A stretch of DNA of 55,018 nucleotides, from positions 1 through 55,018 of IMG/VR virus record IMGVR_UViG_3300006903_000014; one strand, 5' to 3'. Source of the DNA: a virus (lineage: Duplodnaviria; Caudoviricetes). Within the stretch, counting starts at the first letter, position 1, and each line of letters starts with the position of its first letter. The position numbers were made by a program, and so were the translations under genes. The notes beneath the pieces are model-generated. The model had not been told where the DNA came from, made no database searches, and saw only the letters and a list, made by a program, of their open reading frames with translations. Shown one piece after another: positions 10,355-55,018 of the stretch.

Positions 10355-10356
10355 GG

Positions 10357-10674
10357 CTACCTCCTACCCTCTCGAATGGCCTGGTAGACCTCGTCCGACT
10401 GCGCCGTGAAATGGCCCAGCAGGAAGGCGATGACCACGAGGCCGATGTCGACCAGCATGTGGACCACGACCACGATGATCAGGACGACCCACGGCTGCTC
10501 GGCCCAGACCTGCCAGATCAGGCGCGAGATGGTCCCGTCCCCCGCCGCCTTCCCGCTCAGCTCGATCCAGAGCAGCCAGCCGCCGCCGCCGAAGATCACG
10601 AGCAGGCCGATGCACACCAGCGCGATGGCGAACGGGAGCAGGCGACGCGCGGTCACGACCAGCTCGGGCTTCAT
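10357..10674 (-). CDS. Holin-like two-TM membrane protein
   Basis: ATGA overlap with the amidase stop; two long hydrophobic helices, basic C-terminus. Confidence 0.65.
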   Translation of the reverse strand: MKPELVVTARRLLPFAIALVCIGLLVIFGGGGWLLWIELSGKAAGDGTISRLIWQVWAEQPWVVLIIVVVVHMLVDIGLVVIAFLLGHFTAQSDEVYQAIREGRR

Positions 10675-11240
10675 TCGTTGATCGCCGCGATCACGAGGCC
10701 GAGATAGGTCGACATCGGGAAGGACGGGCCCGGGTCCCAGTGGTCCGACTTGCGGAACGCCACGCTGATCGCGGCGTGGGTCGTGATCCCCGCCAGCCCG
10801 TTCTTCAGGTCGACCGGCGCCAGGGCGCGGGCCGGGATCTTGTGGCGCACGCAGATGTCGGCCGCCAGCCTGGCGCTCACCCTCAGCATGGACAGGCTGT
10901 ACTCGTCGAGCCAGTCGCGCTCCGACTGGTTCGCGTAGCCCGCGTGCTCGATGTGGATCCCGTTCTGGTTCGCGCCCGGCGCGGCCCACGCCACGTCCTG
11001 CTCCTCGACGCACCGCACGACCTCCCGGTCGTCGACGCAGTAGTGGGCCGATGCCTCCGGAGAGTCTGGCGAGGCGAACCACTGCGCCACCGCGCGCGCC
11101 GTGCCCGGCTTCTCGGGATGCTCCATCGAGTGGAGGACCAGGAGGCTAACCTGGCGGCCGAGCTGTGCGTGCGTGAAGTACCTCGCTCGGATCAGGTCCA
11201 CGGTGCCAAAAGCGTAGCCCGCGACTTGCCTTGATGTCAA
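10671..11240 (-). CDS. Endolysin, N-acetylmuramoyl-L-alanine amidase (Amidase_2)
   Basis: LLVLHSME, ASAHYCVD, AWAAPGAN..GIHIEH, THAA...HWDPG zinc-amidase motifs. Confidence 0.92.
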   Translation of the reverse strand: MTSRQVAGYAFGTVDLIRARYFTHAQLGRQVSLLVLHSMEHPEKPGTARAVAQWFASPDSPEASAHYCVDDREVVRCVEEQDVAWAAPGANQNGIHIEHAGYANQSERDWLDEYSLSMLRVSARLAADICVRHKIPARALAPVDLKNGLAGITTHAAISVAFRKSDHWDPGPSFPMSTYLGLVIAAINE

Positions 11241-14417: not shown

Positions 14418-14734
14418 GGGACCACCGGCGGGGTCAGCGCGGCGCATGAGACGTAGCCGACGACCCAGCGAATGAAGATTACCCATGACCCGGCGGACGA
14501 CAGGAATGGCTCCCCCTCGATGAGGCAGTGGGGCTTCGTGATCTTGCGGCCGATGATCGAGTGGTAGTCGGCGTAGCCGCCCCGCCTCAGCCAGGCGTAT
14601 TTGGCTGGAGGCGTGGTGAAGAACGGGTCCCTGGGATCCTCGTGGCAGCGGACGCAGAGGTATCTCTGGTGCTGATCCGAATGGAGGCATGGGCCGGGCC
14701 CATGGCAGCTCTCGCACTTCCGCCCGCCACTCAT
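14414..14734 (-). CDS. Zn-finger hypothetical protein
   Basis: ATGA overlap; CESC...CVRC. Confidence 0.5.
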   Translation of the reverse strand: MSGGRKCESCHGPGPCLHSDQHQRYLCVRCHEDPRDPFFTTPPAKYAWLRRGGYADYHSIIGRKITKPHCLIEGEPFLSSAGSWVIFIRWVVGYVSCAALTPPVVP

Positions 14735-15060
14735 GACTCGAGCCCCATGGCCTTCTCTATCGCCCGCTCGATCGCCTCGACCTCGATCGCGTCCGTAGGC
14801 CATGAGCCTATCGCTGCCGCGGCAGCCTCCGCGATTCGCCTCGTCGCTCCGGCGCCCAGGACCAGGACCCGATGGTCGTCGCAGACCGGCATGCTGCCGA
14901 GCAGCAGCGTCCAGCCGCGCGGCGGACGAAGATATGCCTCGGCGATGTATCGGCTCGGCCCGCCGCCGGGAGCCGGCGAGAGGCGCGTGACGTCGTCTTT
15001 CTGGCAGAATCGGCAACGCCACGTGACGTCCACGTCGAGGTCCGTCTTACGGTCAGCCAC
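14731..15060 (-). CDS. Zn-finger hypothetical protein
   Basis: CRFC...PRGW...VCDDH. Confidence 0.55.
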   Translation of the reverse strand: MADRKTDLDVDVTWRCRFCQKDDVTRLSPAPGGGPSRYIAEAYLRPPRGWTLLLGSMPVCDDHRVLVLGAGATRRIAEAAAAAIGSWPTDAIEVEAIERAIEKAMGLES

Positions 15061-15559: not shown

Positions 15560-15825
15560 GACTCGCTCCGCCTCGTCGAGCAGAGCTGAGCCAGGGCCCG
15601 GCACTCGGACGCGGCCTCGATGAACGAGTGCTCGAGGTCGTACAGCGAGCGCGGCGGCAGGTCGCTGACGGCCAGGCCCCCGTTCAGGAGCATCTGGAGC
15701 GGCCCCTGGACGACCGCGATGCGCTGGATGTGGAATCCCAGCAGCCCCCAGCGCGCGGTGGGCTCCTCCGGCGTGCCCTTCTGCTGCTCGAGCGTCCGCT
15801 TCGCCTCGTCACACTGCTTGCACAT
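15556..15825 (-). CDS. Hypothetical protein
   Basis: RBS; coupled ORF. Confidence 0.5.
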   Translation of the reverse strand: MCKQCDEAKRTLEQQKGTPEEPTARWGLLGFHIQRIAVVQGPLQMLLNGGLAVSDLPPRSLYDLEHSFIEAASECRALAQLCSTRRSES

Positions 15826-15841
15826 GCGCCCCCCCTCTCTC

Positions 15842-16231: not shown

Positions 16232-16506
16232 CTCTCGAGCCGCTCCGGGAACCAGGTCGCCAGCTCCGCCCTGACGGCCGCCGGCTCGTGGTCGTAGTCG
16301 GGCCGGCCGCAGGAGGCGCACGCCCACCGTTCGCTCCCGGCGAAGTCATGGTTCGGAACCAGCGCCGGGAGCGAGGCGCCGCACAGGACGCAGCGCGCGG
16401 CGGCGCCATGGATCTCGACGTAGCGCGCCATGCCCTCGACCGGCACGAATCCGCACATCGCGCAGCAGTGGGGCGGCCAGGGCACAGTGCCCGAGATAAG
16501 AGTCAA
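16228..16506 (-). CDS. Zn-finger hypothetical protein
   Basis: Three CxxC pairs. Confidence 0.5.
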   Translation of the reverse strand: MTLISGTVPWPPHCCAMCGFVPVEGMARYVEIHGAAARCVLCGASLPALVPNHDFAGSERWACASCGRPDYDHEPAAVRAELATWFPERLER

Positions 16507-17057
16507 TCCTCACCCCCCTCGTCGTCAAACACCTGGTCCGCCTCGTCGGGCGGGTCCTTGTATGGGAGCCAGCCCTGTCCCGCCACCGGGGCCGCGGGCA
16601 TCGACTTGGCCACGGGCGCGACCGGGGCCTGCACCATCCCCAGACCGGCCGCGATTCGCTCCAGGTGCTCGTCCGCCGGCTCGCCCTCGCGCCGCTCCAG
16701 GTCTCCTCCCGGAGAGAGGCGCGTCAGCTCGGCCTCCGTCGGGCCCGGCCGCTCGCGAGCCCCCGTGAACTTGTCCGGCCTGGTCCCGTCCGCCAGCAGG
16801 ACGCGCACCTTCAGCTCCGCCGTGTGGGTCACCGCGAACAGGAGCACGCCGCGCTCGGCCGGCGTCAGGCGCTTCCCGTCGGTCTCGAGGTCCGCCGACC
16901 ACTGGTCAAACGCCTCCTCCACGCCGAGCTGACGCGAGCGGCCCTCGAGCGCGTACCAGTCCAGGAACGTCTGCGCGAGGTCCTGCGCGCGCGACGCGAA
17001 CAGCGCCAGGCGCCGCCCGTAGTAGTCCGACTCCTCGCGCGTCAGCTCGTCCGCCAT
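16503..17057 (-). CDS. Hypothetical protein
   Basis: GGAGG RBS; TGATG coupling. Confidence 0.55.
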   Translation of the reverse strand: MADELTREESDYYGRRLALFASRAQDLAQTFLDWYALEGRSRQLGVEEAFDQWSADLETDGKRLTPAERGVLLFAVTHTAELKVRVLLADGTRPDKFTGARERPGPTEAELTRLSPGGDLERREGEPADEHLERIAAGLGMVQAPVAPVAKSMPAAPVAGQGWLPYKDPPDEADQVFDDEGGED

Positions 17058-17176
17058 CACGCCCTCCCGTGGCAGCGCGGGCAACGACCGCCCTCGGCGC
17101 GCCGATGGCCGAGGAGACCGCAGGCGATCCCGCGGAGCCATCGTCCCAGCGCCGCGACGCCCACCCGACTCGACAT
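17057..17176 (-). CDS. Small C.L.GH...C.RC protein
   Basis: TGATG coupling at both ends. Confidence 0.5.
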   Translation of the reverse strand: MSSRVGVAALGRWLRGIACGLLGHRRAEGGRCPRCHGRA

Positions 17177-17697
17177 CAGCTCCACTCCGCTGGACGCAAC
17201 GACGCCGGGAGATAGAGGGGGTGCGCGGGGCTGCCGTCCTTGTTCAGGGCCAGGACGCTCAGCCGAACGCCCAGCGCCCGCAGCATCGAACGCACGTAGC
17301 GGCAGTGGGCGGCATATCCCGGCACCGAGCGCCCCGACCTGCCCCACGCGGCGATCACCAGTTGCGCCTGCGCCGCGTTGCCCGAGATGAAGCCGGCGTT
17401 CTGCGGCCCCTCCGGCTCCGGGTCGCGCGCGAGGTCCATCGGATCGGTGGCCCGCCGCGCGTAGAGGTTCACGACGACCATGCCGCCGAACCCCAGGTCC
17501 CGGGAGAAGCGCGCGCACCGACGAATCGTCGGGTCGTCGTCCATCCCGTCCGCCGTCGACGGGTTCAGCATGATCCAGCACGGTCGCGTCGCGAGCATTC
17601 CCGGCGCCCACCAGTGGCGCCAGAGGCTGTAGCGATATCGGCCATCCTCCGAGATGACCGCGCCCCCCGTCCATTCGTCGCGCGCCGGCATGATCAT
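17176..17697 (-). CDS. DUF1643 family protein
   Basis: YRY.L.R.W, IMLNPSTAD...DDPTIRRC, VVNLYA.RATDP, IAAWG, P.HPLY. Confidence 0.9.
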   Translation of the reverse strand: MIMPARDEWTGGAVISEDGRYRYSLWRHWWAPGMLATRPCWIMLNPSTADGMDDDPTIRRCARFSRDLGFGGMVVVNLYARRATDPMDLARDPEPEGPQNAGFISGNAAQAQLVIAAWGRSGRSVPGYAAHCRYVRSMLRALGVRLSVLALNKDGSPAHPLYLPASLRPAEWS

Positions 17698-18209
17698 CTC
17701 CGCCTCCCCAGACCCAGCTCCTCCATCGGCTCGGGCAGGCCGATGGCCGCGCGCCTTGCCCACGCGGCGCGCAGGGCCGCCGTGAACTGACGCATGACGT
17801 ATCGGCGCCCGCGGTCGTCCTCCTCGAACGCCTCGTGCCCTCCGACCGCCTCGAACGCCTCGGCGACCTCCGGCCCGAGGTCGCGCGCGATCACGTAGTG
17901 GACGCGACGGCGCTGGCCGCCGCCCATCTCGACGGCGCTCCTGTCGACGGCGCGGAACGCCTCGTTGGCGGCGGCGACCTCCGCGGCCTCCCGCTCGCGC
18001 CGCTTCGCCTCGAGAAGCATCGCCGGTGGCGGGAGCCGCGTGGAGCGCCAGGTGCTAAGCGTCTCGGAGACCGCGACTCTCCACTCGTCGTCGGTGAGCT
18101 GCGGCGCGATCACCCCGCGGTAGACGTTAAGCAGGTCCTCCGTGGGCTCGCGGTCATAGGCCACGCAGAGCGCGTGCATCCCGGCGGCGAACGCCGCATC
18201 GCTGATCAC
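17694..18209 (-). CDS. Replication accessory protein (G39P/DUF6475-like helicase loader or loader inhibitor)
   Basis: F...M..L...Y......L..Y...L.D.EW..AV......LP.PA.L pattern; A..AVGG...F...RQF C-terminus; lies downstream of the initiator-like gene. Confidence 0.65.
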   Translation of the reverse strand: MISDAAFAAGMHALCVAYDREPTEDLLNVYRGVIAPQLTDDEWRVAVSETLSTWRSTRLPPPAMLLEAKRREREAAEVAAANEAFRAVDRSAVEMGGGQRRRVHYVIARDLGPEVAEAFEAVGGHEAFEEDDRGRRYVMRQFTAALRAAWARRAAIGLPEPMEELGLGRRR

Positions 18210-18382
18210 TCGAATCCCCACGGGACGTCGAATCCCACGGCACCATCGCCATCGGGCGGCGGTGACGGCCGGCTCAGGTCCGCGAATGGTCCGAGGGGCG
18301 TCGGTCCCGCGTCCCGCAGGCAGACGCCGCAGGTGAGGCGGTCGTCGCAGCGGCAGTCGGCCCGCTTGCAGTAGCCCCTCAT
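18206..18382 (-). CDS. Small Cys-rich protein
   Basis: ATGA overlap; CKRADCRC...CGVC. Confidence 0.5.
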   Translation of the reverse strand: MRGYCKRADCRCDDRLTCGVCLRDAGPTPLGPFADLSRPSPPPDGDGAVGFDVPWGFE

Positions 18383-18762
18383 AGTCGCCCCTCGATAGAG
18401 AACTCTGGCAGCGGGTGTCCGTCCTCGCAGGACCAGAGGTGGAGGCAGTACGGGTGGATGTTCACGTAGCGGTCCCGCGGGGGAATCACCTGGACCGCAT
18501 AGCGCTCCCTGCCGAGGAACAGCTCCTTGACCGCGACGACCTCCGTCCAGTTGGGCAGCCTGTCGGGGCGCGCGAGCGACAGGTGAATCCAGCGCCTCCC
18601 GTCCCCCGGACGGCGCCCGGAGATGATGACGCTGAGCTGGTCGTGGCGGAGGTAGCGGCGGCCGTCCCCCTTCTCCTCGACGACCCGCCAGTTGTGCGGC
18701 AGGATCAGCGGCAGCACCGACCGACAGTCCCACGCCCCCGGCGGAAGCTCCTGGCCGCTCAT
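18379..18762 (-). CDS. DUF7694-like phage protein
   Basis: WIHLS..R.DRLP.W.E...VK..F.G....AVQ..P....YVNIHP.CLHLW. Confidence 0.75.
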   Translation of the reverse strand: MSGQELPPGAWDCRSVLPLILPHNWRVVEEKGDGRRYLRHDQLSVIISGRRPGDGRRWIHLSLARPDRLPNWTEVVAVKELFLGRERYAVQVIPPRDRYVNIHPYCLHLWSCEDGHPLPEFSIEGRL

Positions 18763-19109
18763 CCGATCACCGGCCTGGCGGAGACCGGCACCAGCGGGTC
18801 GTCGGCGAAGTCGAACGCCGGGCGGCTGGTGCCGTCCGGGAATACGACCTCGATCGGCGAGAGATTGAAGAGTCCCCCGCTGGTGTAGTCGCAGGGTCCC
18901 GCGCCGGGCACGAACGCCTCCCTGGAGACGGGCAAGTTGCGGCCGACGCAGCTGTAGGCCACCCCTCCCTCCGTGAAGCCGGCGGCCCTATAGTCGAGCA
19001 CCGAGGCCACGTGTTGGCAGGACGGGCATCGGAAGCGCCACGCCATCGGGTCGAGCCCATAACGCCGCGTGCCGGCGGCGACCCACTCTGAGTGCTCGAT
19101 TCTTCTCAT
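18759..19109 (-). CDS. VVA0879-like conserved phage Zn protein
   Basis: W.F.CP.C.H...DY...SC.GR...CDY..GGLF...FDFA. Confidence 0.7.
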   Translation of the reverse strand: MRRIEHSEWVAAGTRRYGLDPMAWRFRCPSCQHVASVLDYRAAGFTEGGVAYSCVGRNLPVSREAFVPGAGPCDYTSGGLFNLSPIEVVFPDGTSRPAFDFADDPLVPVSARPVIG

Positions 19110-19246
19110 CGACGGGATCGCTCCGCGATGACGATGTTGATCAGTCCGCCTAGCGCCCAGACCAGAAGGCGCGGGTGGTGGAGCAGCGCGACGACCGACG
19201 GGATCACGATCATCAGCGTGCCCAGCAGCCAGCCGAGACCCCGCAT
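19106..19246 (-). CDS. Small two-helix membrane protein
   Basis: GAGGAG RBS; hydrophobic. Confidence 0.5.
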   Translation of the reverse strand: MRGLGWLLGTLMIVIPSVVALLHHPRLLVWALGGLINIVIAERSRR

Positions 19247-19262
19247 GACGGCGACGTTCTCC

Positions 19263-19982
19263 TCATCCACGGCCGCCGCCGATCCACGGCTCCGCGGCCG
19301 CCAGGAACCGATGCACCTTGTCCAGGTCGAACTGCTGGTCATCGTCCGAGCGCAGACGGGTCTCCGCGTCGATCCAGAGGCGCTGGGTCGCCGGCACGTG
19401 CGCCGCGAGCCTGCCGAGCTGCTCGCCGACGTTCTCCGGCGACAGCCCGCCCGCGTAGCCCACGTAGCCCGCGCCGGGGAGCGGCCAGAAGTCGGGCAGG
19501 ATCCCGGCCCCGCCCGAGCGGTCGTAGAGCGGAGCGACGCGCAGGCCCCAATCCTGAAAACGCCTGAGCTTGTCGTCGTTCACGCCGTCGACCTGGACGA
19601 CGTAGCCGCCCCACGGCTGCAGGGCCTGGAGCGCGGGCGCGGCCTCTCCGGGCTGGACGTCGTGGAGGCTCGCGTGGAAGTTGAGCTGGATGCGGTCGAA
19701 GCGGCCGGCGATGGTCGGCCTCATCTGCGCGAAGTCGTCTCCCCCGAGCAGGAGGGCCCGCACCCAGCGCCCGCACAGGTGGCCGCTGATCCCGCCCGGC
19801 GAGCGCGGGCCGCCGAGGAACGCCTGGATCCACTTGGTCGTGGGGAATCGCGGCGACCCCTCCTGCGACTTGGAGAGCAGGATCCCCCACTCGACGAACG
19901 GGAAGCGCCGCTGCAGCGTCCAGAGCGCCTCGGGCCCAACGCTGTCGTCCGCCCCCGTGACGGTGACTCTATCCAGGATCAT
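19263..19982 (-). CDS. Phosphoribosylanthranilate-isomerase-like (TrpF-like) TIM-barrel protein
   Basis: TVTGADD, EWGILLS, HLCG, RIQLNF, L.D.SGG.G, GYAGGL.PENV, WID.E. Confidence 0.8.
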   Translation of the reverse strand: MILDRVTVTGADDSVGPEALWTLQRRFPFVEWGILLSKSQEGSPRFPTTKWIQAFLGGPRSPGGISGHLCGRWVRALLLGGDDFAQMRPTIAGRFDRIQLNFHASLHDVQPGEAAPALQALQPWGGYVVQVDGVNDDKLRRFQDWGLRVAPLYDRSGGAGILPDFWPLPGAGYVGYAGGLSPENVGEQLGRLAAHVPATQRLWIDAETRLRSDDDQQFDLDKVHRFLAAAEPWIGGGRG

Positions 19983-20281
19983 CGCGCACCTCCGATCGGC
20001 CTTCCCTTGTCGAAGTTCTTGTGGCAGTCGTCACAGAGCAGCACGTAGTCGCGCAGGTGGCGACGTACATCCGCGAGCGTCTCCCAGCTCCCGCGAGACC
20101 TGCCGCTGACGCCCGTCGGCCTCAGGTGGGCGAACTCGAGATAGTCCTCTCTGCTGCAGGCCACGCAGCGGCCGCCGCCCAGGATCTGCCGGAGTCGCTC
20201 GCGCAGCCGGCGGATGCATCGGCGTCGCCTGTCCTCGTAGCGGAGGAGCGCGGCCGTCGACGCGTCGCGCTCGGCGCTCAA
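19979..20281 (-). CDS. HNH endonuclease-like protein
   Basis: TTGA overlap; LGG.RC..C...LEFAH...LLC..CH. Confidence 0.75.
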   Translation of the reverse strand: MSAERDASTAALLRYEDRRRRCIRRLRERLRQILGGGRCVACSREDYLEFAHLRPTGVSGRSRGSWETLADVRRHLRDYVLLCDDCHKNFDKGRPIGGAR

Positions 20282-20634
20282 CGGGCCCCGCCCTCGCGCC
20301 GGCCGTCGAGCCAGCGCTGGATCAGCTCCCGACTGGCGGCCGCCACGTCGCGCGAGCCGGACGTCTTCTTGCCGAGCCAGACGCCCAGCTTGCTCGCGAA
20401 GGTGCCCGGCTTGACGAAGCGCGCCGGCTCGGCGCGCAGGTAGAGCTGCCACGCGGGCCGCACCGCGTCCCACCCATATCGCTCGACGACGCGGCGCAGG
20501 GACCCGGCGATCTCGCCGCCGGGGGCCGTCGCCTCCCCGAACACCGCGTTCCAGTCGTCGCACGCCTCCTGCACCCACGCCGCCCCCCTCCTGACCACCT
20601 TCGCCCCCCGGGTTGGCATGTCTCTCGCTACCAT
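20278..20634 (-). CDS. Short protein resembling only the C-terminal helical domain of phage replication initiators
   Basis: GGAGG RBS; W...F...L...VE.YG...V..AW..YL....FVKP.TF...L..WL pattern; position upstream of the G39P-like gene. Confidence 0.55.
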   Translation of the reverse strand: MVARDMPTRGAKVVRRGAAWVQEACDDWNAVFGEATAPGGEIAGSLRRVVERYGWDAVRPAWQLYLRAEPARFVKPGTFASKLGVWLGKKTSGSRDVAAASRELIQRWLDGRREGGAR

Positions 20635-20639
20635 CCCTC

Positions 20640-21240
20640 CGTCGTAGGACGCCGGTGAGTAGCGGACCTCACTTGCTCCGCGCGGACGAGGCTCGACCCC
20701 TCAGGGTCTCGTCCGCGCGGAAGCGTCGGCGCCGTACGAGCACGGCCCCACCGCACGCGCCCCGCGGACGGCGTCGTCCGCCGCGGGAGGTCGCTACTTA
20801 ATGGTCCGACGCGCGGACCAGGAGAGAAGGCATCCGACCTGCGAGCGCCCCGGGACCGTCTCCCCACCCCCACAGAGGTCCCGTTTTTGAGAACCCGCGG
20901 GGCGCTGCCGTTGACCGCCCGCCCCGCGAGAGAGGAATGGCGCGCCCGGAGGCCAGGGACCGACCGTCCACGTACCACTCGCGGAGCTTGGAAGTTTTCC
21001 GCAGCAGGGGCGTGGCTGGCGGCGGGGGGCAGACCGCGCGCGCGCCGCGACCTTCGCGGGCACTCATCTCGGCGAGGTGACGGTCGGTCTCTGGCATCCA
21101 GGCGTACCTGCGGTTGGGGCTTGACCGGTGGGGGTGCGCCGGATATAGTGGCGGGCATCCCGCTCGCCTCTGCGATCCCGGCGGCCTCGGACTGAATCTC
21201 CGAGGTCGCCGCCCCTCCCTCGCGACCTTCCCGCGGACGA
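20640..21240. ncRNA. Large structured non-coding element (putative primer/leader RNA or origin)
   Basis: Nested inverted repeats: 20658-70/20787-98, 20677-90/20708-21 (14 bp), 20802-20, 20844-51/20899-906, 20952-68/21079-95 (17 bp), 21179-21211. Confidence 0.6.
21121..21149 (+). promoter_or_regulatory. Sigma70-type promoter, antisense to the phage operon
   Basis: TTGACC-N17-TATAGT. Confidence 0.7.
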
Positions 21241-21241
21241 C

Positions 21242-21294
21242 AAGATAGCGCCCTTTGGTAGAATGGTCCAGCGGAATCTCGAAATTGGTAGAAT
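21242..21294 (-). promoter_or_regulatory. Sigma70-type promoter with a 10-bp direct repeat
   Basis: TGGACC(21270-65)-N17-TATCTT(21247-42); ATTCTACCAA at 21255-64 and 21285-94. Confidence 0.6.
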
Positions 21295-21382
21295 CGCCCA
21301 CCGCGGGGCCGCGCAGGATCCTCCCTGACGCAACGTGGGCGCCGCTGGCGCGATCGGCGGGGCGGCGCCTGCTCTCGAGCCA

Positions 21383-22168
21383 TCAGCGCCTCCGCGCGCC
21401 CCTGACGGTCGACTTGGGACGCTCGAAGATGCGTACGCCGGCCAGCTCGCGCGTCCCGCTCTCGACGGCCGCGCGGATCAGCCGCGGGTCGGGGCTGCAG
21501 TAGCGCCGCTCGACCTGGTCGGGCTGCTGGATCTCGAAGTCCCAGACCATCCCGCTCGAGACGCTCCCGGAGTCCGTCTTGACGCCCGTGGGGATCGGTG
21601 GCGCCAGGGTCTCACGATGGGCGGCCGCCGCCTGCAGGTGAGCCCGCCGCTCGCCGGCCGCCGCCGCCACGCGTTCCTCCGCGGTCTTGGCCTCGAGCTT
21701 GCGCGCCGCCTCCAGGCGCTCCTGCTCCTGCGCCGCCTGCTCCCGGCGCCTGGCCTCCGCCTGCTGCTCGGCGCGACGCAGCGCGATCGCGGAGAGGGCC
21801 GCCTCCGTCTTCCGCTTGGCGTTGAGCTTCACGGCCTCCAATCGTCTCACGACCGGGTCGACCGCGGCCCGCAGGCGCGTCTCGATCCCGCGGACGGGCC
21901 CGAGCACCCTGTCCCTCGCGCGTTCCGCGACCTTGACGCCGCGGTGAGCCAGCGCCGCGATCTCGCCCGCGGACGTCTCGGCGCCCTCGGCCTCGGGGTC
22001 GATCGCCTCCAGCCTGGCCTCGAGCCGAGCGGCTCCGGCCGCCAGGCGCTCCAGGATGGCGACGCCGCCCATCACCCCCACGGCGACGGACTCCGACATT
22101 CCCGCCGTGAGCTCCGGTCCAGCGACGCGCGCCACGCCCGTCTCGGTCACCGTGCTATCCTCTGGCAT
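21383..22168 (-). CDS. Coiled-coil recombination-module protein (Gp157-like C-terminus)
   Basis: Long Ala/Glu/Arg coiled coil; C-terminal WDFEI..PD.V.R.YC.PD...I..AV..G..E..GVRIFE. Confidence 0.7.
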   Translation of the reverse strand: MPEDSTVTETGVARVAGPELTAGMSESVAVGVMGGVAILERLAAGAARLEARLEAIDPEAEGAETSAGEIAALAHRGVKVAERARDRVLGPVRGIETRLRAAVDPVVRRLEAVKLNAKRKTEAALSAIALRRAEQQAEARRREQAAQEQERLEAARKLEAKTAEERVAAAAGERRAHLQAAAAHRETLAPPIPTGVKTDSGSVSSGMVWDFEIQQPDQVERRYCSPDPRLIRAAVESGTRELAGVRIFERPKSTVRGARRR

Positions 22169-22244
22169 TCGCCTCGTCTCCTCTCGCGGAGCCCCCGGCC
22201 CGGGGTCGCCGCCCTCGGGCCGGGGGCCGGCGGGCTCCGCCGCC

Positions 22245-23267
22245 TCAGTCCTCGTCCGGGAACAGCTCCATCGCCGCGCGTTCCAGCTCATCGGCGGGCG
22301 CAGGTTGGGGGGCTGAAGCTGGCTCCGGCGGCGGCTGGGAGGCCGCAGGCGGCGACGGCGCGGCCTTTCTTGGCTTCGGCTCGGTCGCCTTCTCCGGCTC
22401 GCGCTTCGCGTCATCCTGGCCCGTCGCCGCCCCGGCCTGGACCTGCTCGGGCGTCAGGCTCGCCGGCCTGACCACCTCGGGACCGGCCTCGCGCGCCGTG
22501 GAGAAGATCTCCTCGAGCGTGGCCTCCTTGTCGACGGTAACCGCCGTCTTGATGCCCGTCAGCGTGATCAGGTCGTCCACGTCGACGTCCGCCAGCCCCG
22601 GCCGGTCGAGGAGCTTGAGCACCGCGGCCTGGTCGTAGCCCTTAGTGGCGAACCAGGCGAAGGCGCGCTCGCGCCGCTTCTCGATGGTCATCCCCTTGCC
22701 GGTCGAGACGTCCTTCGCCTTCTCCAGGATCCTGCTCACCACCGGCGACGGGATCACGTTGAAGACGGCGTTGCGATACGCGATCGCGCTGGCCGCCATC
22801 GTCGTGACGTTGATCATGTCGTCGCTGTAGCGCCGCCCGTCGCTGTTGCGGATCCCGCGGGTGACGTCGACGCCCACACGCAGGTTCTTCTCCAGGTCCC
22901 AGGCGACCCCGCGCACCGTAACGACCTTCTCCCCCGCGCCGAGCGGCGTCGTGGCCGCGTGGATGTTGCCCCAGCTCGAGGCCATGATGCGCGCCAGGTG
23001 TACCGACGGGCCCTCGATGTTCTTAGTCTTGCCCTTCTTGTCCTTCCGCGGGAGCCGGTAGTAGCACATCGAGGCCGTGTCCTCGTCCATCGTCGCGAGC
23101 AGCTCCGCCTCCTTGAGGCAGAGGTCGACGCTGCGCGGGAATCGCTTCGCCGTCGCGATCTGCACGTCTATCTCGGCCCGGCTGATCGTGGAGAGCGCGG
23201 TCGCGTCGACCTCGTCCGCGCCGACCGGCTCGACGACCTCGGCCTCCAACGTCCTCGCCTTCGACAT
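22245..23267 (-). CDS. Putative single-strand annealing/recombination protein
   Basis: RAEIDVQIATAKRFPRS, YRLPR...IEGPSV.LA....WGNI, AWDLEKN, AYRNA; downstream of the exonuclease. Confidence 0.7.
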   Translation of the reverse strand: MSKARTLEAEVVEPVGADEVDATALSTISRAEIDVQIATAKRFPRSVDLCLKEAELLATMDEDTASMCYYRLPRKDKKGKTKNIEGPSVHLARIMASSWGNIHAATTPLGAGEKVVTVRGVAWDLEKNLRVGVDVTRGIRNSDGRRYSDDMINVTTMAASAIAYRNAVFNVIPSPVVSRILEKAKDVSTGKGMTIEKRRERAFAWFATKGYDQAAVLKLLDRPGLADVDVDDLITLTGIKTAVTVDKEATLEEIFSTAREAGPEVVRPASLTPEQVQAGAATGQDDAKREPEKATEPKPRKAAPSPPAASQPPPEPASAPQPAPADELERAAMELFPDED

Positions 23268-23269
23268 CT

Positions 23270-23560
23270 CTAGACCTCCTCCTCCGAGCGGCGCCGCGGG
23301 CCCCTCGGCATCCTGTTCTTCGGGTCCCCGGCCTTTCGGCCGCGGCGGGACATCACGATATGTTCGACGCGCCGGATCTCCGCGCGCGTCGCCTCCACGA
23401 CGGCCCCCCTGTCGATCGCGCCGAAGTCTCGGCGCCGGTCGAGCGAGTCGAGGTAGTCGAACAGCAGCACGAGCGATCGCCTCGGGTCAGGCTTCGCGGC
23501 GAGCCCGCGCATGTAATCGACCTCGTCGGCCGTCGTCCAGGCGAGGACCTCCTCGCTCAA
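23270..23560 (-). CDS. Hypothetical protein
   Basis: TTGA overlap; WTT.DE..Y..GL...L..Y.....RR.DFG.ID. Confidence 0.55.
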   Translation of the reverse strand: MSEEVLAWTTADEVDYMRGLAAKPDPRRSLVLLFDYLDSLDRRRDFGAIDRGAVVEATRAEIRRVEHIVMSRRGRKAGDPKNRMPRGPRRRSEEEV

Positions 23561-23832
23561 CTGCGGGCCTTGACGTGCGCGGCCTGCACACGCGCCGAGA
23601 ACGTCGCCGCCGCGAGGGACATCCTCCGCAGGGACTCGACGGGCAGCGGGAAGGCGTCGACGAACAGGCACCACCGCGCGAGCGCCTCCTCGATCGCCTC
23701 GCACTGCCGGGCGAACAGCTCCGGGCCCGCGGCCGCCTGGAGCTGGCGCGCCAGGTCCGCGACGGGCATGCAGCCCCGCCTGCCCGCCCTCGGCGGACGC
23801 GGCGCGAGGTGGCCGTGCTTGGGGCGCCTCAC
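23557..23832 (-). CDS. Hypothetical protein
   Basis: GTGA overlap. Confidence 0.45.
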   Translation of the reverse strand: MRRPKHGHLAPRPPRAGRRGCMPVADLARQLQAAAGPELFARQCEAIEEALARWCLFVDAFPLPVESLRRMSLAAATFSARVQAAHVKARS

Positions 23833-24110
23833 GTGGTCTGCCCCGGCCCCTGGCGCCGCATGGACTCGAGCGCGGCGAGCGCCAGCGCGCCTATCTGAGC
23901 GAAGCGGAGCCGCGAGTCGTACGTGCCCATCCCGATCTCCTGATTCAGCGCCAGCGCGTAGTGGAGAATCAGGTCGCACCACTCGGAGGGCGTGTGCCCG
24001 TCGTCGTGGGCCTCGGCCCATCGGTCTCGCTGCCGCGCGCGCTCCACCAGGACCTGGATCATCGCCCAGCCGGCGGGCGTCCTCTCCTCGACCGGCACCT
24101 GCAGCCTCAT
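23829..24110 (-). CDS. MazG-like all-alpha protein
   Basis: V..ER.RQ...W...HDD.H...EW...I...QIGALA.AA.E. Confidence 0.65.
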   Translation of the reverse strand: MRLQVPVEERTPAGWAMIQVLVERARQRDRWAEAHDDGHTPSEWCDLILHYALALNQEIGMGTYDSRLRFAQIGALALAALESMRRQGPGQTT

Positions 24111-24373
24111 TCTGTTCCCTCCGCCAGGCCGGCGACGTCGTCGCTGTACCAGCGCTCCATCTCGTCCGCGAGCGCCAGCGCCTCGAGCACCTTGGCGCGC
24201 TGCCGCTTGCTCGCCCCGGAGAACCCGCCGTTGGCGCCGAGGTAGCGGTCGCACCACTCCCGAATCGTGCCCGGCGCATGCTGGTCCCTGGCGAGCAGCA
24301 CGAATATCGGTTCGTCCGCCCGCGCCCTGCCCAGGCAGCTCCGCGGGTCCCTCAGCTCCATGCTCTTCTTCAA
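24107..24373 (-). CDS. Conserved phage hypothetical protein
   Basis: CL.RA..DEPIFVLLARD..AP..IR.W...A..ME.W. Confidence 0.75.
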   Translation of the reverse strand: MKKSMELRDPRSCLGRARADEPIFVLLARDQHAPGTIREWCDRYLGANGGFSGASKRQRAKVLEALALADEMERWYSDDVAGLAEGTE

Positions 24374-25251
24374 TCGGTCCCCCCTCCGCGTCGCCCGTTC
24401 ACGAACGGGCAGTCAGACCAGAACTCGCACCAGCGCGGCGCGCACCACCAGGAGAGCGCCGGGTCCGCCGGTACGAATACGCCCCGCTTCACCGCCGCGA
24501 CCGCCACGTTGATTCGCCTGACCAGGGCCGCCACGTCCCTGGCGTCGCGCGTCGTCTCCAGGGGAACGTGTCGCCTCAGGCCGCGCCCCGGCGTCCTGAC
24601 CAGGTAGTCGAGGACGTACTTGCCGGGGAGCGCGCCCGTCTCGGCCGAGCGGATCATTCCGTACATCGTGAGCTGCTGGCTCCGCTCGGCCGCCGAGGCG
24701 GCCGGACTCTTCTCCGACGTCTTGGCGTCCCGGATCACCTCGACCGTCTCCTGCTCCTCGAGCCCGAGCGAGGCGCGGAGCTGACCGACCAGGCTCACCG
24801 ATGCCGGCTCCCGCGTGATCACATCCATGGTCCCGTGGACCACGAGATCGGAGTCTCGCGGTCTGACGATGACCTTGCGCTCGACCGCCACGACGTCCAG
24901 CGTCGGCGCTACAACCTTGGCGTACAGGCCACCCAGGTCCACCGCGAAGTCCTTGGCCGCGTCGACGTCGTCGGGCCGCGCCTCCCCATCGACCGCGTCC
25001 CCGCTCGGCGTGATCCCGTCCTGGACCTCGCGCTCGAAGGCGTCGGCGGCGACGTCCTCGGCCTCCTCGACGCTCATCACGGCTGCGTCCATGCGGCGCA
25101 GGTTCGCCTCCCGCGCGGCGGCGTGGACGGCCGTCCCGCGCGCCTGCGGCAGGGTCCGGGGCCGGCGCTCGCCCTCGATGTGTCGCCGCCTGAACATCTC
25201 CCCGCAGCGCTGCAGGTCGGTGAGGGCGGAGTTGTTCCACTCCTGGCTCAT
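24370..25251 (-). CDS. Cas4-like/RecB-family PD-(D/E)xK exonuclease
   Basis: ATG 25251; N-terminal C, GTAVH, GTMD, IRDAKT, QLTMY, C..RWCEFWSDC Fe-S cysteines. Confidence 0.88.
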   Translation of the reverse strand: MSQEWNNSALTDLQRCGEMFRRRHIEGERRPRTLPQARGTAVHAAAREANLRRMDAAVMSVEEAEDVAADAFEREVQDGITPSGDAVDGEARPDDVDAAKDFAVDLGGLYAKVVAPTLDVVAVERKVIVRPRDSDLVVHGTMDVITREPASVSLVGQLRASLGLEEQETVEVIRDAKTSEKSPAASAAERSQQLTMYGMIRSAETGALPGKYVLDYLVRTPGRGLRRHVPLETTRDARDVAALVRRINVAVAAVKRGVFVPADPALSWWCAPRWCEFWSDCPFVNGRRGGGTD

Positions 25252-25298
25252 GGTAGACCTGAATATAAGTCGGTGCCCGGTCGGGTGTGGTCCGGACC

Positions 25299-25529
25299 CT
25301 AGCGCTTTTTCTTGGAGGGGCGGCGCGGCGGACCGGCATTCTCGGCCAGGAGCTGCAGGTGCCGGGCCCGGCCCTCGGGGATCATCACGGCGCCGGTCTC
25401 GTAGCGGCTGATCTGGACGGCGCCGCGCATCCCGAGCATCTCGGCGAGGCGCGCCTGGCTCACGCCGAGCCGCTCCCGGAGCGCGCGGAACTCGGCCGGC
25501 GACATGGTCGACTCGACGGTGGCTGACAT
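25299..25529 (-). CDS. XRE-family HTH transcriptional regulator (Cro-like, no peptidase domain)
   Basis: FRALRERLGVSQARLAEMLG...ISRYETG...IP. Confidence 0.9.
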   Translation of the reverse strand: MSATVESTMSPAEFRALRERLGVSQARLAEMLGMRGAVQISRYETGAVMIPEGRARHLQLLAENAGPPRRPSKKKR

Positions 25530-25536
25530 TGCGTTC

Positions 25537-25565
25537 AAGATAACACCCCCCCCTCGTTACTTCAA
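25537..25565 (-). promoter_or_regulatory. Promoter giving a leaderless mRNA for the HTH regulator
   Basis: TTGAAG-N17(contains G8 and TG extension)-TATCTT, 7 nt before ATG 25529. Confidence 0.6.
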
Positions 25566-32355: not shown

Positions 32356-32364
32356 GCTCGCCTC

Positions 32365-32408: not shown

Positions 32409-32427
32409 GCCCCCCCCCAAGAAAAAA

Positions 32428-53803: not shown

Positions 53804-54967
53804 CTACGGCCTCGACGCCAGCAGGACGAACGGCGACAGGGTGTTCGTGCCGTTCTTCGGCGTGAGCGGCGCATTCCAGACCGGCTGACCGTCGATCCGG
53901 TACAGGAAGCGGAACACCTGCTCGTCGTTCAGGAAGCGGACGTGCATCGACACGGCGCTCTGGATCGCGCCCTTGTCGATGGTCAGGTACTGCGAGAGGT
54001 CCACGAGCTGAATGTCGCCCACGGTGCCGACCGTCGAGCAGTACTCCACGGGGATCACGGGCCGCCCGAACAGCGTGGCGTACGGCTGTCCGGAGACGCC
54101 CCCCGCGGGCAGGTAGACCGGCACGCCGCCGGTCCCGATCTTGAGCACCATCTGGTAGAGCTGGGGCTCGCAGTCCTGGTTGATGAGCCACACGGCGTTC
54201 TGCCGCGAGCGCGCCCACATGCGCGACCACATCTTGAGCACGTTCTCGAAGACGATCGTGCCCGTGGGCTGGCCCGACTCGGCCGACACCGTGACCACCG
54301 CGCCGCTGTTCAGGTAGCCGAGCGGCTGACCGGCGCCGCTGCCGTTGACGATCGCGTCCTCGCACCGGAACATCAGCTCCTCGGGCAGCGCCTCGTTGAC
54401 GATGCTCTCGAGGGCGGCCGCGTCGGCGAGCACCTCGTCGGTGCCGTAGACGAGACCGGTGATCTTGTGCAGCTGCAGCTCCATCTGGCGGAACTTCGGC
54501 TGGGAGGCGGTGAACGCCGCGGCCTCCGCCGTCCAGTAGGACAGCACGCCGCCCCAACGGGAACCGTCCACGCGCGAGGTCTCGTCGATGGCGTTGATCT
54601 TCAGGCCGTTCGAGCCCCCGCTGATGGGGACCCGGCGGACCCGGCTCATGATCTGGCCGGTCTCATACGTCTTCCGCAGGATCTCCGCGCTGAAGTCCTT
54701 GGTGACGAGGAACCCGCCGTCGGCCTGGATCAGCTCACCGAGCCCGGTCGCGGCCGCGCGCTTCGGGTCCGGGGCCTGCCAGACCAGCCGCGGGTCGACG
54801 TGCTGGTTGGGCATCGTCGCCCCGGCGACCGCCTGCAGGAACTCTCCGAAGCTGGAGAACCCGCCCTTGCCGTCTCCCGCCCCGGCCGCGAGCGCGGCCC
54901 TCTGGGACGCCGTGTGATCCGCCGGGCCGCGCGTCGGCTCGACGGTGCGCTCCAGCTCGAGCTGGAG
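53804..54967 (-). CDS. Major capsid protein, HK97 fold (N-terminus truncated)
   Basis: F.SFGEFL, DGGFLV, IDETSR, W.AE, K....Y.TDE.L.D, G.G.GQPLG, LFGRPV, F..DE..FRF..R.DGQP. Confidence 0.95.
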   Translation of the reverse strand, partial: LQLELERTVEPTRGPADHTASQRAALAAGAGDGKGGFSSFGEFLQAVAGATMPNQHVDPRLVWQAPDPKRAAATGLGELIQADGGFLVTKDFSAEILRKTYETGQIMSRVRRVPISGGSNGLKINAIDETSRVDGSRWGGVLSYWTAEAAAFTASQPKFRQMELQLHKITGLVYGTDEVLADAAALESIVNEALPEELMFRCEDAIVNGSGAGQPLGYLNSGAVVTVSAESGQPTGTIVFENVLKMWSRMWARSRQNAVWLINQDCEPQLYQMVLKIGTGGVPVYLPAGGVSGQPYATLFGRPVIPVEYCSTVGTVGDIQLVDLSQYLTIDKGAIQSAVSMHVRFLNDEQVFRFLYRIDGQPVWNAPLTPKNGTNTLSPFVLLASRP

Positions 54968-55018
54968 CGCACCGTCGAGCCGACGCGCGGCCCGGCGGAT
55001 CACACGGCGTCCCAGAGG
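54899..55018. repeat. Perfect 120-bp terminal palindrome (fold-back)
   Basis: 54959-55018 is the exact reverse complement of 54899-54958, centred on CCAGCTC|GAGCTGG. Confidence 0.95.

What the first reader, a model, noticed from the sequence alone, without database searches (positions are those of the whole stretch)
20635..21382. ~750-bp multi-domain structured non-coding element at the replication-origin position: candidate RNA-primed (ColE1-like) phage origin or large ncRNA
Seen: the only long gap in a tightly tiled genome, packed with nested stems. These are a closing stem 20658-70/20787-98 enclosing a perfect 14-bp stem 20677-90/20708-21 and two smaller hairpins; hairpin 20802-20; stem 20844-51/20899-906 with an inner hairpin whose minus-strand loop is GUGGGGGUGGGG; a 17-bp long-range stem 20952-68/21079-95; and a 13-bp hairpin 21179-21211. 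A minus-strand promoter at 21242-70 would give a ~600-nt leader. Known: ColE1 uses a ~550-nt folded primer RNA with a G-rich tract and a short convergent antisense RNA. Inference: an analogous RNA-controlled origin in a tailed phage with no recognised polymerase, primase or helicase. Alternative: a processive antitermination leader for the ~20-kb downstream operon, where no Q-like gene was recognised. Several stems have G-U wobbles on the plus strand, so the functional strand (or ssDNA) is uncertain.
Basis: partly seen in the sequence, partly recalled or inferred. Interest (0 to 1): 0.85.

Follow-up and report, generated by a model that had tools for sequence, protein, structure and literature searches.

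The report
Structured non-coding RNA region in phage
A 750-base stretch of an orphan soil phage genome carries no gene, folds better than chance, and resembles a promoter-to-terminator non-coding RNA at the same place in one distant relative, so it is probably a new large phage RNA whose role, perhaps in starting DNA replication, is untested.

Summary
Window 20635-21382 has no coding signal. The named stems exist. It folds better than shuffles on both strands (z about -4), and 1 of 21 same-size genome controls folds as well. It is the longest internal gap, not the only one. It matches no Rfam family, and its 251-aa ORF has no homologue.

New here: the best relative I could reach, metagenome contig L019 (RecT-like protein 42% identical), has the same gene order. 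In the same slot it has a non-coding unit of about 740 nt. That unit has the locus's only sigma-70-like promoter and a canonical terminator, both on the gene-sense strand. A core of about 200 nt (window 20958-20759, minus strand) aligns collinearly with it. The score beats 197-200 of 200 shuffles and 146-152 of 154 real high-GC controls. Three hairpins are kept through compensatory changes. Covariance-model scores alone are at noise level.

Best reading: a new large structured ncRNA on the minus strand. Plus-strand promoter-like sites could make short antisense RNAs. A ColE1-like or phage-c2-like origin role fits the position but is untested. I found no RNA data and no third member.

The parts
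20635..21382 (.). Whole non-coding, structure-rich intergenic region between the orphan gene 21383..22414 and the orphan gene 20278..20634
   Evidence: Flat GC by codon phase. z -4.0 and -3.84. z -4.10 against 21 genome controls. No Rfam family at gathering score. The ORF that spans it has no homologue.
20759..20958 (-). Conserved core shared with the L019 non-coding unit (L019 10349-10532, plus strand)
   Evidence: Collinear chained alignment. 3, 2 and 8 of 154 real high-GC controls score as high under three gap settings. In an anchored alignment 115 of 165 aligned columns are identical; 35 consensus pairs, 8 of them compensatory.
20895..20929 (-). Hairpin H1: 10-bp stem whose loop holds CGGUCAACGGC
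   Evidence: 4 of 10 pairs change on both sides between the window and L019. Top hit of the reciprocal model R2 with filters off (20.5 bits, E 0.022).
20852..20882 (-).
   Evidence: the loop is conserved in L019 and 3 of 6 stem pairs change on both sides. This stretch folds better on the minus strand (-31.1 against -27.9 kcal/mol).
20759..20803 (-). Conserved block UUAAGUAGC followed by hairpin HC (CCGCGG arms, bulged U)
   Evidence: Best local alignment between the window and L019 (11 of 300 shuffles score as high). Alignments.
20655..20800 (.). Domain 1: closing stem 20658-70/20787-98 around three hairpins (four-way junction)
   Evidence: z -4.70 (minus) and -5.18 (plus), 0 of 200 shuffles.
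20677..20721 (-). Perfect 14-bp stem (18 pairs in the MFE), 43 nt before the next start codon. Its arms resemble the arms of the L019 terminator, but no U-run follows.
   Evidence: Dot-plot match between window 20693-20680 and L019 10970-10983, 10 of 14. No terminator-like site with a T-run in the region.
20940..21107 (.). Domain 3: 168-nt extended hairpin closed by arms 20943-68/21079-104
   Evidence: z -5.31 (minus) and -5.76 (plus), 0 of 200 shuffles. On the plus strand the centroid nearly equals the MFE.
21121..21149 (+). Plus-strand sigma-70-like promoter TTGACC-17-TATAGT (10 of 12), antisense to all neighbouring genes
   Evidence: one of only 5 such sites in the 55-kb window.
21150..21240 (+). 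Hairpins downstream of the plus-strand promoter, including 21179-21211. Candidate body of a short antisense RNA.
   Evidence: z -3.52 on plus (0 of 200 shuffles) against -1.23 on minus (28 of 200). One G.T pair that exists only on the plus strand.
21237..21296 (.). AT-rich patch, third lowest GC of any 60-nt window. Holds two exact TTGGTAGAAT repeats 30 bp apart (TGN-extended -10 boxes on plus) and the weak minus-strand promoter 21270-21242.
   Evidence: 2 of the 6 TGNTANNNT sites in the window lie here.
21335..21374 (.). GC-rich hairpin just after the stop codon of 21383..22414. Possible two-way terminator without a U-run; folds better on plus.
   Evidence: -29.8 kcal/mol on plus, -21.2 on minus. 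Not better than shuffles.

Best explanation
The gap is not a coding gene and not a plain terminator-promoter spacer. It most likely encodes a large structured non-coding RNA of roughly 0.5-0.6 kb, read on the minus (gene-sense) strand. This RNA would belong to an undescribed family that has at least one other member, the unit of about 740 nt in metagenome contig L019.

In both phages the element follows the recombination genes: PD-(D/E)XK exonuclease, RecT-like protein, and a shared orphan. In L019 it precedes replication genes (a DnaB-like helicase). In the window the downstream genes carry only weak replication leads.

The conserved core is three hairpins, H1, H2 and HC. Their loops are conserved, including a G-rich one, together with the single-stranded motif UUAAGUAGC.

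On the opposite strand of the window's right third there are three promoter-like sites and hairpins that fold better on the plus strand. These could give one or more short antisense RNAs that overlap the 5' part of the long RNA and end at the hairpin 21335-21374.

Shown: non-coding character, excess folding, synteny, and the promoter and terminator signals in L019. Supported but not proven: homology of the core. Inferred only: that the RNA acts in cis at or near the phage's replication origin, as an origin transcript or R-loop former like PE1-T of lactococcal phage c2 or RNA II of ColE1. I put that role at about 0.3.
For: Non-coding and structured.

No conserved ORF. ORF251 matches only itself. 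In L019 10200-11000 no sense-strand stop-to-stop frame exceeds 105 aa.

Synteny. L019 has the exonuclease (PF12705, 2.5e-22), the RecT-like protein (42% identity, E 2e-75), and a homologue of the C-terminus of 21383..22414 (38% over 78 aa, E 2.9e-7). Then comes the non-coding stretch, then DnaB_C (1.7e-27).

L019 transcription signals. The only sigma-70-like site in its 16.5 kb is TTGACA-18-TAAAGT at 10216-10245. A 14-bp stem followed by T6 lies at 10952-10985. Both are on the gene strand. The unit folds with z -3.78 and z -8.3/-6.6 for 10291-11250 (only 10 shuffles).

Shared core. The chained local score is 41.5 against 26.8 +/- 3.5 for shuffles, 0 of 200 as high; 1 and 3 of 200 under other gap costs. 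The reverse-complement control scores 26.6. 3, 2 and 8 of 154 real high-GC segments score as high.

Structure. 16 pairs in H1 and H2, 30 of 32 cells paired, 7 pairs changed on both sides. Slid controls give 34-50% paired and 1-2 such pairs. The anchored alignment gives 35 pairs, 8 compensatory.

The same Rfam family is the best sub-threshold hit in both elements, on the gene strand in each: RF02932 at 25.1 and 22.8 bits.

Antisense side. Plus-strand promoter-like sites and plus-favoured folding of 21150-21240 and 21335-21374.

Precedent for a non-coding origin transcript in a tailed phage: passages of PMC7150918 on c2 PE1-T.
Against: Only two members, and the homology is not secure. Window-only model R1 hits L019 at 19.7 bits, E 0.56 in 462 kb. 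Chance hits of about 20 bits occur inside coding DNA in a search of similar size. The reciprocal L019-only model misses the window site with default filters. With filters off it ranks the site first, but nearly tied with 36726-36778 (20.5 against 20.3 bits) and aligning hairpin 1 only. The best single local block is matched by 11 of 300 shuffles. blastn and nhmmer see nothing. The pair counts were made on alignments fitted to the structure.

The window lacks a convincing sense promoter (8 of 12) and has no terminator with a T-run. Its strongest promoter-like sites point the other way.

Folding is as good or better on the plus strand for most sub-domains, so DNA-level or plus-strand function is not excluded.

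The replication labels of the window's neighbours are leads only. Nothing came from Pfam or PHROGs. The fold searches used low-confidence models and gave nothing.
Confidence: 0.5

Rival explanations
1. Ordinary inter-operon control region. A hairpin ends the recombination operon, an AT-rich patch carries promoters, and a long, incidentally GC-rich and self-complementary 5' leader precedes the next operon. No separate RNA function.
For: The AT-rich patch 21237-21296 ranks third in the genome, behind two patches that carry clear minus-strand promoters. A hairpin lies right after the upstream stop codon. Most 150-nt windows of the gap fold no better than chance.
Against: 750 bp is far more than the other promoter regions of this tightly packed genome use. 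Whole-region and domain z-scores of -4 to -5.8. The other non-coding-like stretches do not fold unusually. The L019 counterpart has its own terminator. The core is shared.
Confidence: 0.2
2. DNA-level replication origin. The inverted repeats and the recurring CGCGGACG-type words are binding sites or extruded hairpins for an initiator. The AT-rich patch with two 10-bp direct repeats is the unwinding element. RNA plays no part.
For: Folding is equally good on both strands. The 8-mer CGCGCGGA occurs 5 times against 0.24 expected, and CGCGGACG 4 times against 0.18. Two exact TTGGTAGAAT repeats lie 30 bp apart. The position is next to genes with weak replication leads.
Against: Stems covary between the window and L019 rather than keeping their sequence. 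That is what a folded single strand would show, not a duplex binding site. The L019 element is bracketed by a promoter and a terminator. There is no regular iteron array. GC skew shows no inflection, though with all genes on one strand skew says little.
Confidence: 0.15
3. Strict ColE1-type origin. A minus-strand RNA II analogue of about 550-600 nt forms a persistent hybrid through its G-rich loop, is cut by RNase H and primes Pol I. A short convergent plus-strand RNA I analogue controls it.
For: A convergent promoter pair (21121-21149 on plus, 21270-21242 on minus) would give an overlap of about 80 nt that holds a 13-bp hairpin with a 7-nt loop. The G-rich loop is conserved in L019. No polymerase, primase or helicase was found in the proteins scanned.
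Against: No sequence or Rfam relation to ColE1 RNAs. The minus-strand promoter is weak. No antisense promoter near the 5' end of the L019 unit. The L019 unit ends in a terminator, which a primer RNA does not need. L019 encodes its own DnaB-like helicase. The record is about 75% complete.
Confidence: 0.06
4. The functional products are only the short plus-strand RNAs from the promoters at 21121-21294. They would act as antisense regulators of the 3' end of 21383..22414 or of read-through transcripts. The rest of the gap is filler.
For: 2 of the 5 best sigma-70-like sites and 2 of the 6 extended -10 boxes of the whole window lie here on the plus strand. 21150-21240 folds with z -3.52 on plus only.
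Against: These promoters point away from the most structured and conserved part, 20655-21107. They are not seen in L019. No T-run terminator follows them.
Confidence: 0.07
5. The 251-aa ORF 20628..21383 (minus), rich in Arg, Pro, Gly and Ser, is a real gene for a disordered protein.
For: It fills the gap exactly, its start overlaps the upstream stop and its end overlaps the downstream start. A gene caller predicted it in a public collection.
Against: GC at its third codon position is 0.60-0.72, against more than 0.9 in real genes here. No Pfam hit. No homologue among 1.84 billion representatives. The frame is not kept in L019. By my own arithmetic from base composition, an open frame of this length occurs in roughly 1 in 70 random frames at 72% GC.
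Confidence: 0.02

Closest known systems
Origin region of lactococcal Ceduovirus phages (c2-type ori with the non-coding PE1-T transcript)
   Same: A non-coding stretch of several hundred bp in a siphovirus, with its own promoter and no ORF or ribosome-binding site. Its transcript is thought to start replication through transcription. The cloned region replicates a plasmid without phage proteins (passages of PMC7150918). The L019 unit likewise runs from a promoter to a terminator.
   Different: No sequence relation was looked for or found. c2 ori lies between divergent early and late blocks in a low-GC host. Here all genes run one way, and the element lies between the recombination genes and the putative replication genes. 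Origin activity is untested here.
ColE1 RNA II / RNA I origin
   Same: A long folded RNA with a G-rich loop, and a convergent promoter that could give a short antisense RNA over its 5' end.
   Different: No Rfam or sequence match. The antisense promoter is not conserved in L019. L019 has a terminator at the 3' end. The features of ColE1 itself are recalled from textbook knowledge and were not checked in a call.
Rfam RF02932 Betaproteobacteria-1 RNA
   Same: It is the best sub-threshold hit in both the window (25.1 bits) and L019 (22.8 bits), on the gene strand in each. The hit covers two hairpins, and part of the loop sequence matches the consensus.
   Different: Both scores are far below the gathering score of 49.4. 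The third hairpin of the model is missing, whereas the two best sub-threshold hits in 151 bacterial genomes do align over it. I found no paper describing the family.
Large ornate bacterial and phage RNAs (GOLLD, ROOL, OLE)
   Same: RNAs of several hundred nt, highly structured, of unknown function (abstract of PMC12286853 in the listing). That GOLLD and ROOL occur partly in phages is recalled, not read here.
   Different: No match to their Rfam models even at E up to 10 in the gap. High-GC soil phage. Only two members, so 'ornate' conservation cannot be judged.

Membership tests
Rfam RF02932 Betaproteobacteria-1 | Score at or above the curated gathering score (49.4 bits) | tested here: not met
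   25.1 bits in the window; 22.8 bits in L019.
Rfam RF02932 Betaproteobacteria-1 | Three-hairpin architecture, including the 3' hairpin (model positions about 89-116) | tested here: not met
   In both alignments the 3' part is replaced by a short unaligned stretch.
Any Rfam 15 family (GOLLD, ROOL, group I/II introns, riboswitches and others) | Match at gathering score anywhere in the window | tested here: not met
   0 matches in 55,018 bases on both strands. Nothing better than E 0.021 in 20400-21600.
ColE1-type RNA-primed origin | Long primer-RNA promoter about 500-600 nt upstream, plus a convergent antisense promoter over its 5' end | tested here: inconclusive
   The plus-strand site 21121-21149 is strong (10 of 12). 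The minus-strand site 21270-21242 is weak (8 of 12). Not conserved in L019.
ColE1-type RNA-primed origin | RNase H processing of a persistent RNA-DNA hybrid and Pol I extension; origin activity | not testable with these tools
   No RNA runs hold the sequence. Needs a mini-replicon assay.
c2-type phage origin with a non-coding transcript | Non-coding unit with its own promoter (and terminator), no ORF and no RBS | tested here: inconclusive
   Met in L019. In the window the sense promoter is weak and there is no T-run terminator.
c2-type phage origin with a non-coding transcript | The fragment supports plasmid replication in the host | not testable with these tools
   Host unknown. The source is a rhizosphere metagenome.
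New ncRNA family (window + L019) | Shared core sequence beyond chance, in the same orientation and gene neighbourhood | tested here: met
   (p about 0.01-0.05 against real controls). Synteny of three flanking genes.
New ncRNA family (window + L019) | Covariation that supports a common secondary structure | tested here: inconclusive
   7 of 16 and 8 of 35 pairs are compensatory. But there are only two sequences, the alignments were fitted to the structure, and the covariance-model scores are at noise level.

The most novel reading that the evidence does not exclude
The window and L019 define a new family of structured RNAs of about 0.6-0.75 kb in high-GC soil siphoviruses. These RNAs would be the phages' origin transcripts. 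The RNA would be made next to the replication genes. Its conserved G-rich loop and hairpins would form or position an RNA-DNA hybrid that opens or primes the origin. In the window phage, where no helicase, primase or polymerase was recognised, short convergent antisense RNAs would set the firing rate. That would be a ColE1- or c2-like logic arising independently in an unrelated phage lineage.
Probability: 0.15. Interest if true: 0.8.

Novelty: new variant of a known kind. Interest (0 to 1): 0.55.

Why it matters
Large structured RNAs of phages are few, and almost none has a known function. Replication origins of uncultured high-GC phages are essentially unmapped.

If this element is a conserved RNA between the recombination and replication modules, it gives a concrete, clonable candidate of about 750 bp. 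It could be used to test RNA-dependent origin firing outside ColE1 plasmids and lactococcal c2 phages. It also adds a new RNA family to structure catalogues.

If it is only a long leader, the finding is ordinary. Either way, the conserved core (H1, H2, UUAAGUAGC, HC) gives a search handle for finding more members as metagenomes grow.

Tried and rejected
Known RNA families. Rfam at gathering score over the whole window gave 0 matches. At E up to 10 over the gap, only sub-threshold hits appeared. No tRNA or tmRNA.

Close relatives. The phages collection gave no match for 15000-27000 in near mode or for the gap in distant mode. The flank proteins 20278..20634, 21383..22099 and 17694..18221 match only themselves in 5.8 billion proteins. 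A scan of viral contigs with 20278..20634 found no relative. Relatives found through the RecT-like protein were all 50% identical or less: 12 viral loci, 31 metagenome loci and 3 genome loci. Relatives found through the capsid protein were all 62% or less. Named phages were all under 60%. blastn and nhmmer of the gap against 12 and then 132 loci gave nothing.

Motif scans of viral contigs. The double TTGGTAGAAT pattern gave 6 AT-rich, unrelated stretches. The loop pattern gave 1 hit in moderate-GC DNA with no hairpin by eye, not confirmed by model R1. The UUAAGUAGC-plus-hairpin pattern gave 0.

Model R3 (two sequences). 3 weak hits in 406 kb, two of them inside the RecT-like gene of one phage. 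0 of 151 genomes of one phylum. An empty answer there shows nothing, because the host phylum is unknown.

RF02932 in 151 genomes: 0 over the cut-off.

A long gap is not a general feature of the RecT-like gene's neighbourhood. The 17 loci of 0.61 GC or less had no ORF-free stretch of 300 nt or more nearby, though the test is weak above about 50% GC. Of the non-coding-like stretches in three other high-GC loci, L011 did not fold better than shuffles and L002 only weakly.

The global MAFFT alignment of the gap with the L019 unit was uninformative. Dot-plot hit counts were no higher than in the reversed and reverse-complement controls.

Expression. No RNA holder was listed. The only run is the probable DNA source. 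Laying its contigs showed only the source contig and no variant.

Neighbour function. AF2 single-sequence models had pLDDT 64.3 and 62.4. Foldseek against the PDB gave nothing at E 0.001 or better. BLASTP of the 118-aa protein against the L019 147-aa protein gave nothing.

Earlier notes of this scan. No look-alike stretch in other genomes.

A blastn search of the L019 unit against phages hit only a simple GGCA-type repeat in 18 actinophage records. I judged this low-complexity and did not follow it.

Papers. A search for 'Betaproteobacteria-1' found 3 papers whose titles and abstracts were irrelevant.
Full report
WHAT THE RECORD IS. The window is the whole held record, a virus contig of 55,018 nt. 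IMG/VR classes it as linear, and CheckV estimates it as about 75% complete. GC content is about 71%. Nearly all genes lie on the minus strand and show GC above 0.9 at the third codon position. Family searches identify the following:
- a major head protein at 53804..55003, a minor tail protein, a glycosyltransferase, an AAA ATPase, and a ParB-like protein followed by a glucosyltransferase;
- an amidase at 10671..11201;
- upstream of the finding, a PD-(D/E)XK exonuclease at 24370..25251 and a phrog_3657 protein at 22245..23267; some mycobacterial prophage records annotate their 29%-identical counterpart of the latter as RecT-like;
- downstream of the finding, an orphan 118-aa gene (20278..20634), a small HNH endonuclease (about 19979..20270), a DUF7694 protein, DUF1643 and NUDIX.

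No polymerase, primase or helicase appeared in the Pfam and PHROGs scans of most, but not all, called proteins.

THE OBSERVATION. Across 20600-21379 the GC content of the three codon phases is flat at 0.60-0.82. Both flanks reach 0.90-0.97 in one phase.

The 748-nt region folds to -414 kcal/mol on either strand. That gives z -4.00 and -3.84, with 0 of 20 shuffles as stable. In my own control the gap scored z -4.10. Twenty-one other 748-nt windows of the same genome ranged from -4.24 to +2.71, and only one (52501-53248) was as low.

Most of the excess is in two domains:
- 20655-20800, a closing stem around three hairpins: z -4.70/-5.18;
- 20940-21107, a 168-nt extended hairpin: z -5.31/-5.76, 0 of 200 shuffles each.

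In a 150-nt scan of the whole genome only 20601-20750 stands out.

The gap is the longest internal stretch without a coding signal, but not the only one. 1-1170 and about 14581-15180 also lack it, and they fold like shuffles.

A 251-aa ORF spans the gap exactly. Its third-position GC is that of non-coding DNA. It has no Pfam hit and no homologue other than itself among 1.84 billion representative proteins.

TRANSCRIPTION SIGNALS IN THE WINDOW. The whole window has only five sigma-70-like sites at 9 of 12 or better. Two lie in the gap, and both are on the plus strand, against the direction of every neighbouring gene. They are TTGACC-17-TATAGT at 21121-21149 and ACGACA-16-TAGAAT (with TG) at 21237-21264. 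A second TGGTAGAAT lies at 21286-21294. These are 2 of only 6 TGNTANNNT sites in the window. The 10-mer TTGGTAGAAT occurs exactly twice, 30 bp apart.

The patch 21237-21296 is the third most AT-rich 60-nt window of the genome. The two lower ones carry clear minus-strand promoters just ahead of start codons. No terminator with a T-run is present.

The right third of the gap folds better on the plus strand:
- 21150-21240: z -3.52 on plus against -1.23 on minus;
- 21335-21374: -29.8 against -21.2 kcal/mol.

The stretch 20844-20906 folds better on the minus strand, -31.1 against -27.9 kcal/mol.

LOOKING FOR RELATIVES. The phage is an orphan. I found no DNA match in 50,697 phage records. The three flank proteins I searched match only themselves in 5.8 billion proteins. 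Relatives reached through the RecT-like protein are all 50% identical or less, and those reached through the capsid protein 62% or less. blastn and nhmmer of the gap against all 132 fetched loci found nothing. No RNA run holds the sequence; only the probable source metagenome does.

THE SYNTENIC RELATIVE L019. Among high-GC loci I looked for stretches without a coding signal and folded three of them. L019 is a 16,470-nt metagenome contig with the best RecT-like match (42% identity, E 2e-75). It stood out with z -8.3/-6.6 for 10291-11250 (only 10 shuffles). The unit 10250-10995 gives z -3.78 (20 shuffles).

L019 has the same gene order as the window:
- the exonuclease (PF12705, 2.5e-22);
- the RecT-like gene;
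- a homologue of the C-terminus of the window's 21383..22414 (38% over 78 aa, E 2.9e-7);
- about 1 kb of non-coding DNA;
- a DnaB-like helicase (PF03796, 1.7e-27).

Within that non-coding DNA lies the only sigma-70-like site of the whole locus, TTGACA-18-TAAAGT at 10216-10245. A textbook intrinsic terminator also lies there: a 14-bp stem followed by T6, at 10952-10985. Both are on the gene strand. No sense frame is open for more than 105 codons. L019 therefore carries a stand-alone non-coding transcription unit of about 740 nt in the slot that the gap occupies in the window.

IS THE WINDOW'S GAP HOMOLOGOUS TO IT? Evidence for:
(i) The best sub-threshold Rfam hit is the same family in both, RF02932, on the gene strand in both: 25.1 bits at window 20832-20929 (minus) and 22.8 bits at L019 10363-10451 (plus). 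For scale, the best hits in a 6.2-Mb high-GC genome were 19.4 bits. The best in 151 genomes were 28.8 and 26.4 bits.
(ii) Model R1, built from the window's two hairpins alone, finds L019 10363-10438 as the only non-self hit in 462 kb.
(iii) On the resulting alignment, 30 of 32 cells pair and 7 of 16 pairs change on both sides. Slid controls give 34-50% paired and 1-2 such pairs. The loops are largely conserved.
(iv) A chained local alignment links window 20958-20759 (minus) to L019 10349-10532 in collinear blocks. These include CUCCUG, UUAAGUAGC and a CCGCGG-armed hairpin with a bulged U. The score is 41.5 against 26.8 +/- 3.5 for shuffles, with 0 of 200 as high; 1 and 3 of 200 with other gap costs. 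The reverse-complement control scores 26.6. Against 154 real high-GC segments, 3, 2 and 8 score as high.
(v) An anchored alignment has 115 identical of 165 aligned columns. RNAalifold finds 35 pairs kept in both sequences, 8 of them compensatory. The neighbouring proteins are only about 40% identical.

Evidence against:
- The R1 hit has E 0.56 in its search space, and hits of about 20 bits occur by chance inside coding DNA.
- The reciprocal L019-only model R2 misses the window site with default filters. With filters off it ranks the site first, but barely (20.5 against 20.3 bits), and through hairpin 1 only.
- The best single local block is matched by 11 of 300 shuffles.
- Overall dot-plot density is no higher than in the controls.
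- No third member was found.

I put homology of the core at roughly 60%. The positional analogy holds regardless: a structured non-coding unit between the recombination and replication genes.

Neither element is a member of RF02932. Both score far below the gathering score and lack the third hairpin.

HOW IT MOST LIKELY WORKS. Shown: the region is non-coding and unusually self-complementary. In one relative it sits where a promoter-to-terminator non-coding unit sits. It carries strong promoter-like sites on the antisense strand.

Supported: a conserved three-hairpin core read on the minus strand.

Inferred: the window makes a minus-strand RNA of roughly 0.5-0.6 kb. This RNA would start at the weak promoter near 21242-21270, or arise by read-through of the hairpin at 21335-21374. 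It would contain the core and end near the strong stem 20677-20721, whose arms resemble those of the L019 terminator. Short plus-strand RNAs from 21121-21294 would overlap its 5' part and could end at 21335-21374.

The position is after the exonuclease and RecT-like genes. In L019 it is ahead of a helicase. In the window it is ahead of genes with weak language-model leads to replication families: Phg_2220_C/DnaB_2 for the 118-aa protein, and G39P_N on 24% of one cluster for the 175-aa protein. Pfam, PHROGs and fold searches did not confirm these leads. This position makes a replication-linked role the most natural guess.

The closest precedent in tailed phages is the non-coding PE1-T transcript of the lactococcal c2 origin. 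It is thought to start replication through transcription, in a fragment that replicates a plasmid without phage proteins (passages of PMC7150918). I rate an origin-transcript role at about 0.3 and the strict ColE1 mechanism at about 0.06. Nothing here tests either. GC skew is uninformative.

VERDICT. The ColE1-like origin remains an untested analogy. The antitermination-leader idea is disfavoured by the L019 terminator.

The element matches no described RNA family. It is best filed as a candidate new family of large phage RNAs with two members. It is moderately interesting. It would become highly interesting if more members confirm the covariation, or if the fragment shows origin activity.

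Noticed in passing
window 53401-53550 (+) and 52501-53248: Inside minus-strand coding genes of the head-tail region, the plus strand of 53401-53550 folds to -92.7 kcal/mol, z -5.9, 0 of 200 shuffles. The 748-nt window 52501-53248 (minus) has z -4.24, as extreme as the gap itself. Unexplained.
   Followed up: partly
window 32340-32420 and 35600-35700 (minus strand): The two most AT-rich patches of the genome carry promoter-like sites (TAGACA-17-TATATT with TG; a TATAAT box). They share the words TATAATATAC and AGATAAGG just before start codons. The second has an inverted repeat CTTATCT/AGATAAG around its -10 box, which looks like an operator.
   Followed up: partly
L019 10216-10991: A stand-alone non-coding unit of about 740 nt in a metagenome phage contig, with a consensus-like promoter and a 14-bp terminator followed by T6. 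It lies between a homologue of the window's 21383..22414 and a DnaB-like helicase.
   Followed up: yes
L019 10880-10944: A GGCAC/GGCAA-type simple repeat inside the L019 unit matches DNA of 16 Mycobacterium and 2 Gordonia phage records at 78-84% over about 60 nt; the listed rows show no annotated feature or a hypothetical protein there. Probably low complexity.
   Followed up: no
window 14418-15052 and 1-1170: Two further stretches lack the genome's typical third-position GC signal. The first holds ORFs that look protein-like by eye (14731..15060). The second is at the contig end. Neither folds unusually.
   Followed up: partly
window 19979-20305 (-): A small HNH endonuclease (PF13391, 8.7e-06; phrog_4234, 8.2e-08) lies in a different frame, overlapping the end of the long ORF 19979..20578, just downstream of the 118-aa gene.
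   Followed up: partly
window 20677-21241: Words of the type CGCGGACG / CGCGCGGA recur. CGCGCGGA occurs 5 times against 0.24 expected, and CGCGGACG 4 times against 0.18. They lie mostly in the arms of separate hairpins. They could be a protein-binding word or simply shared stem sequence.
   Followed up: partly
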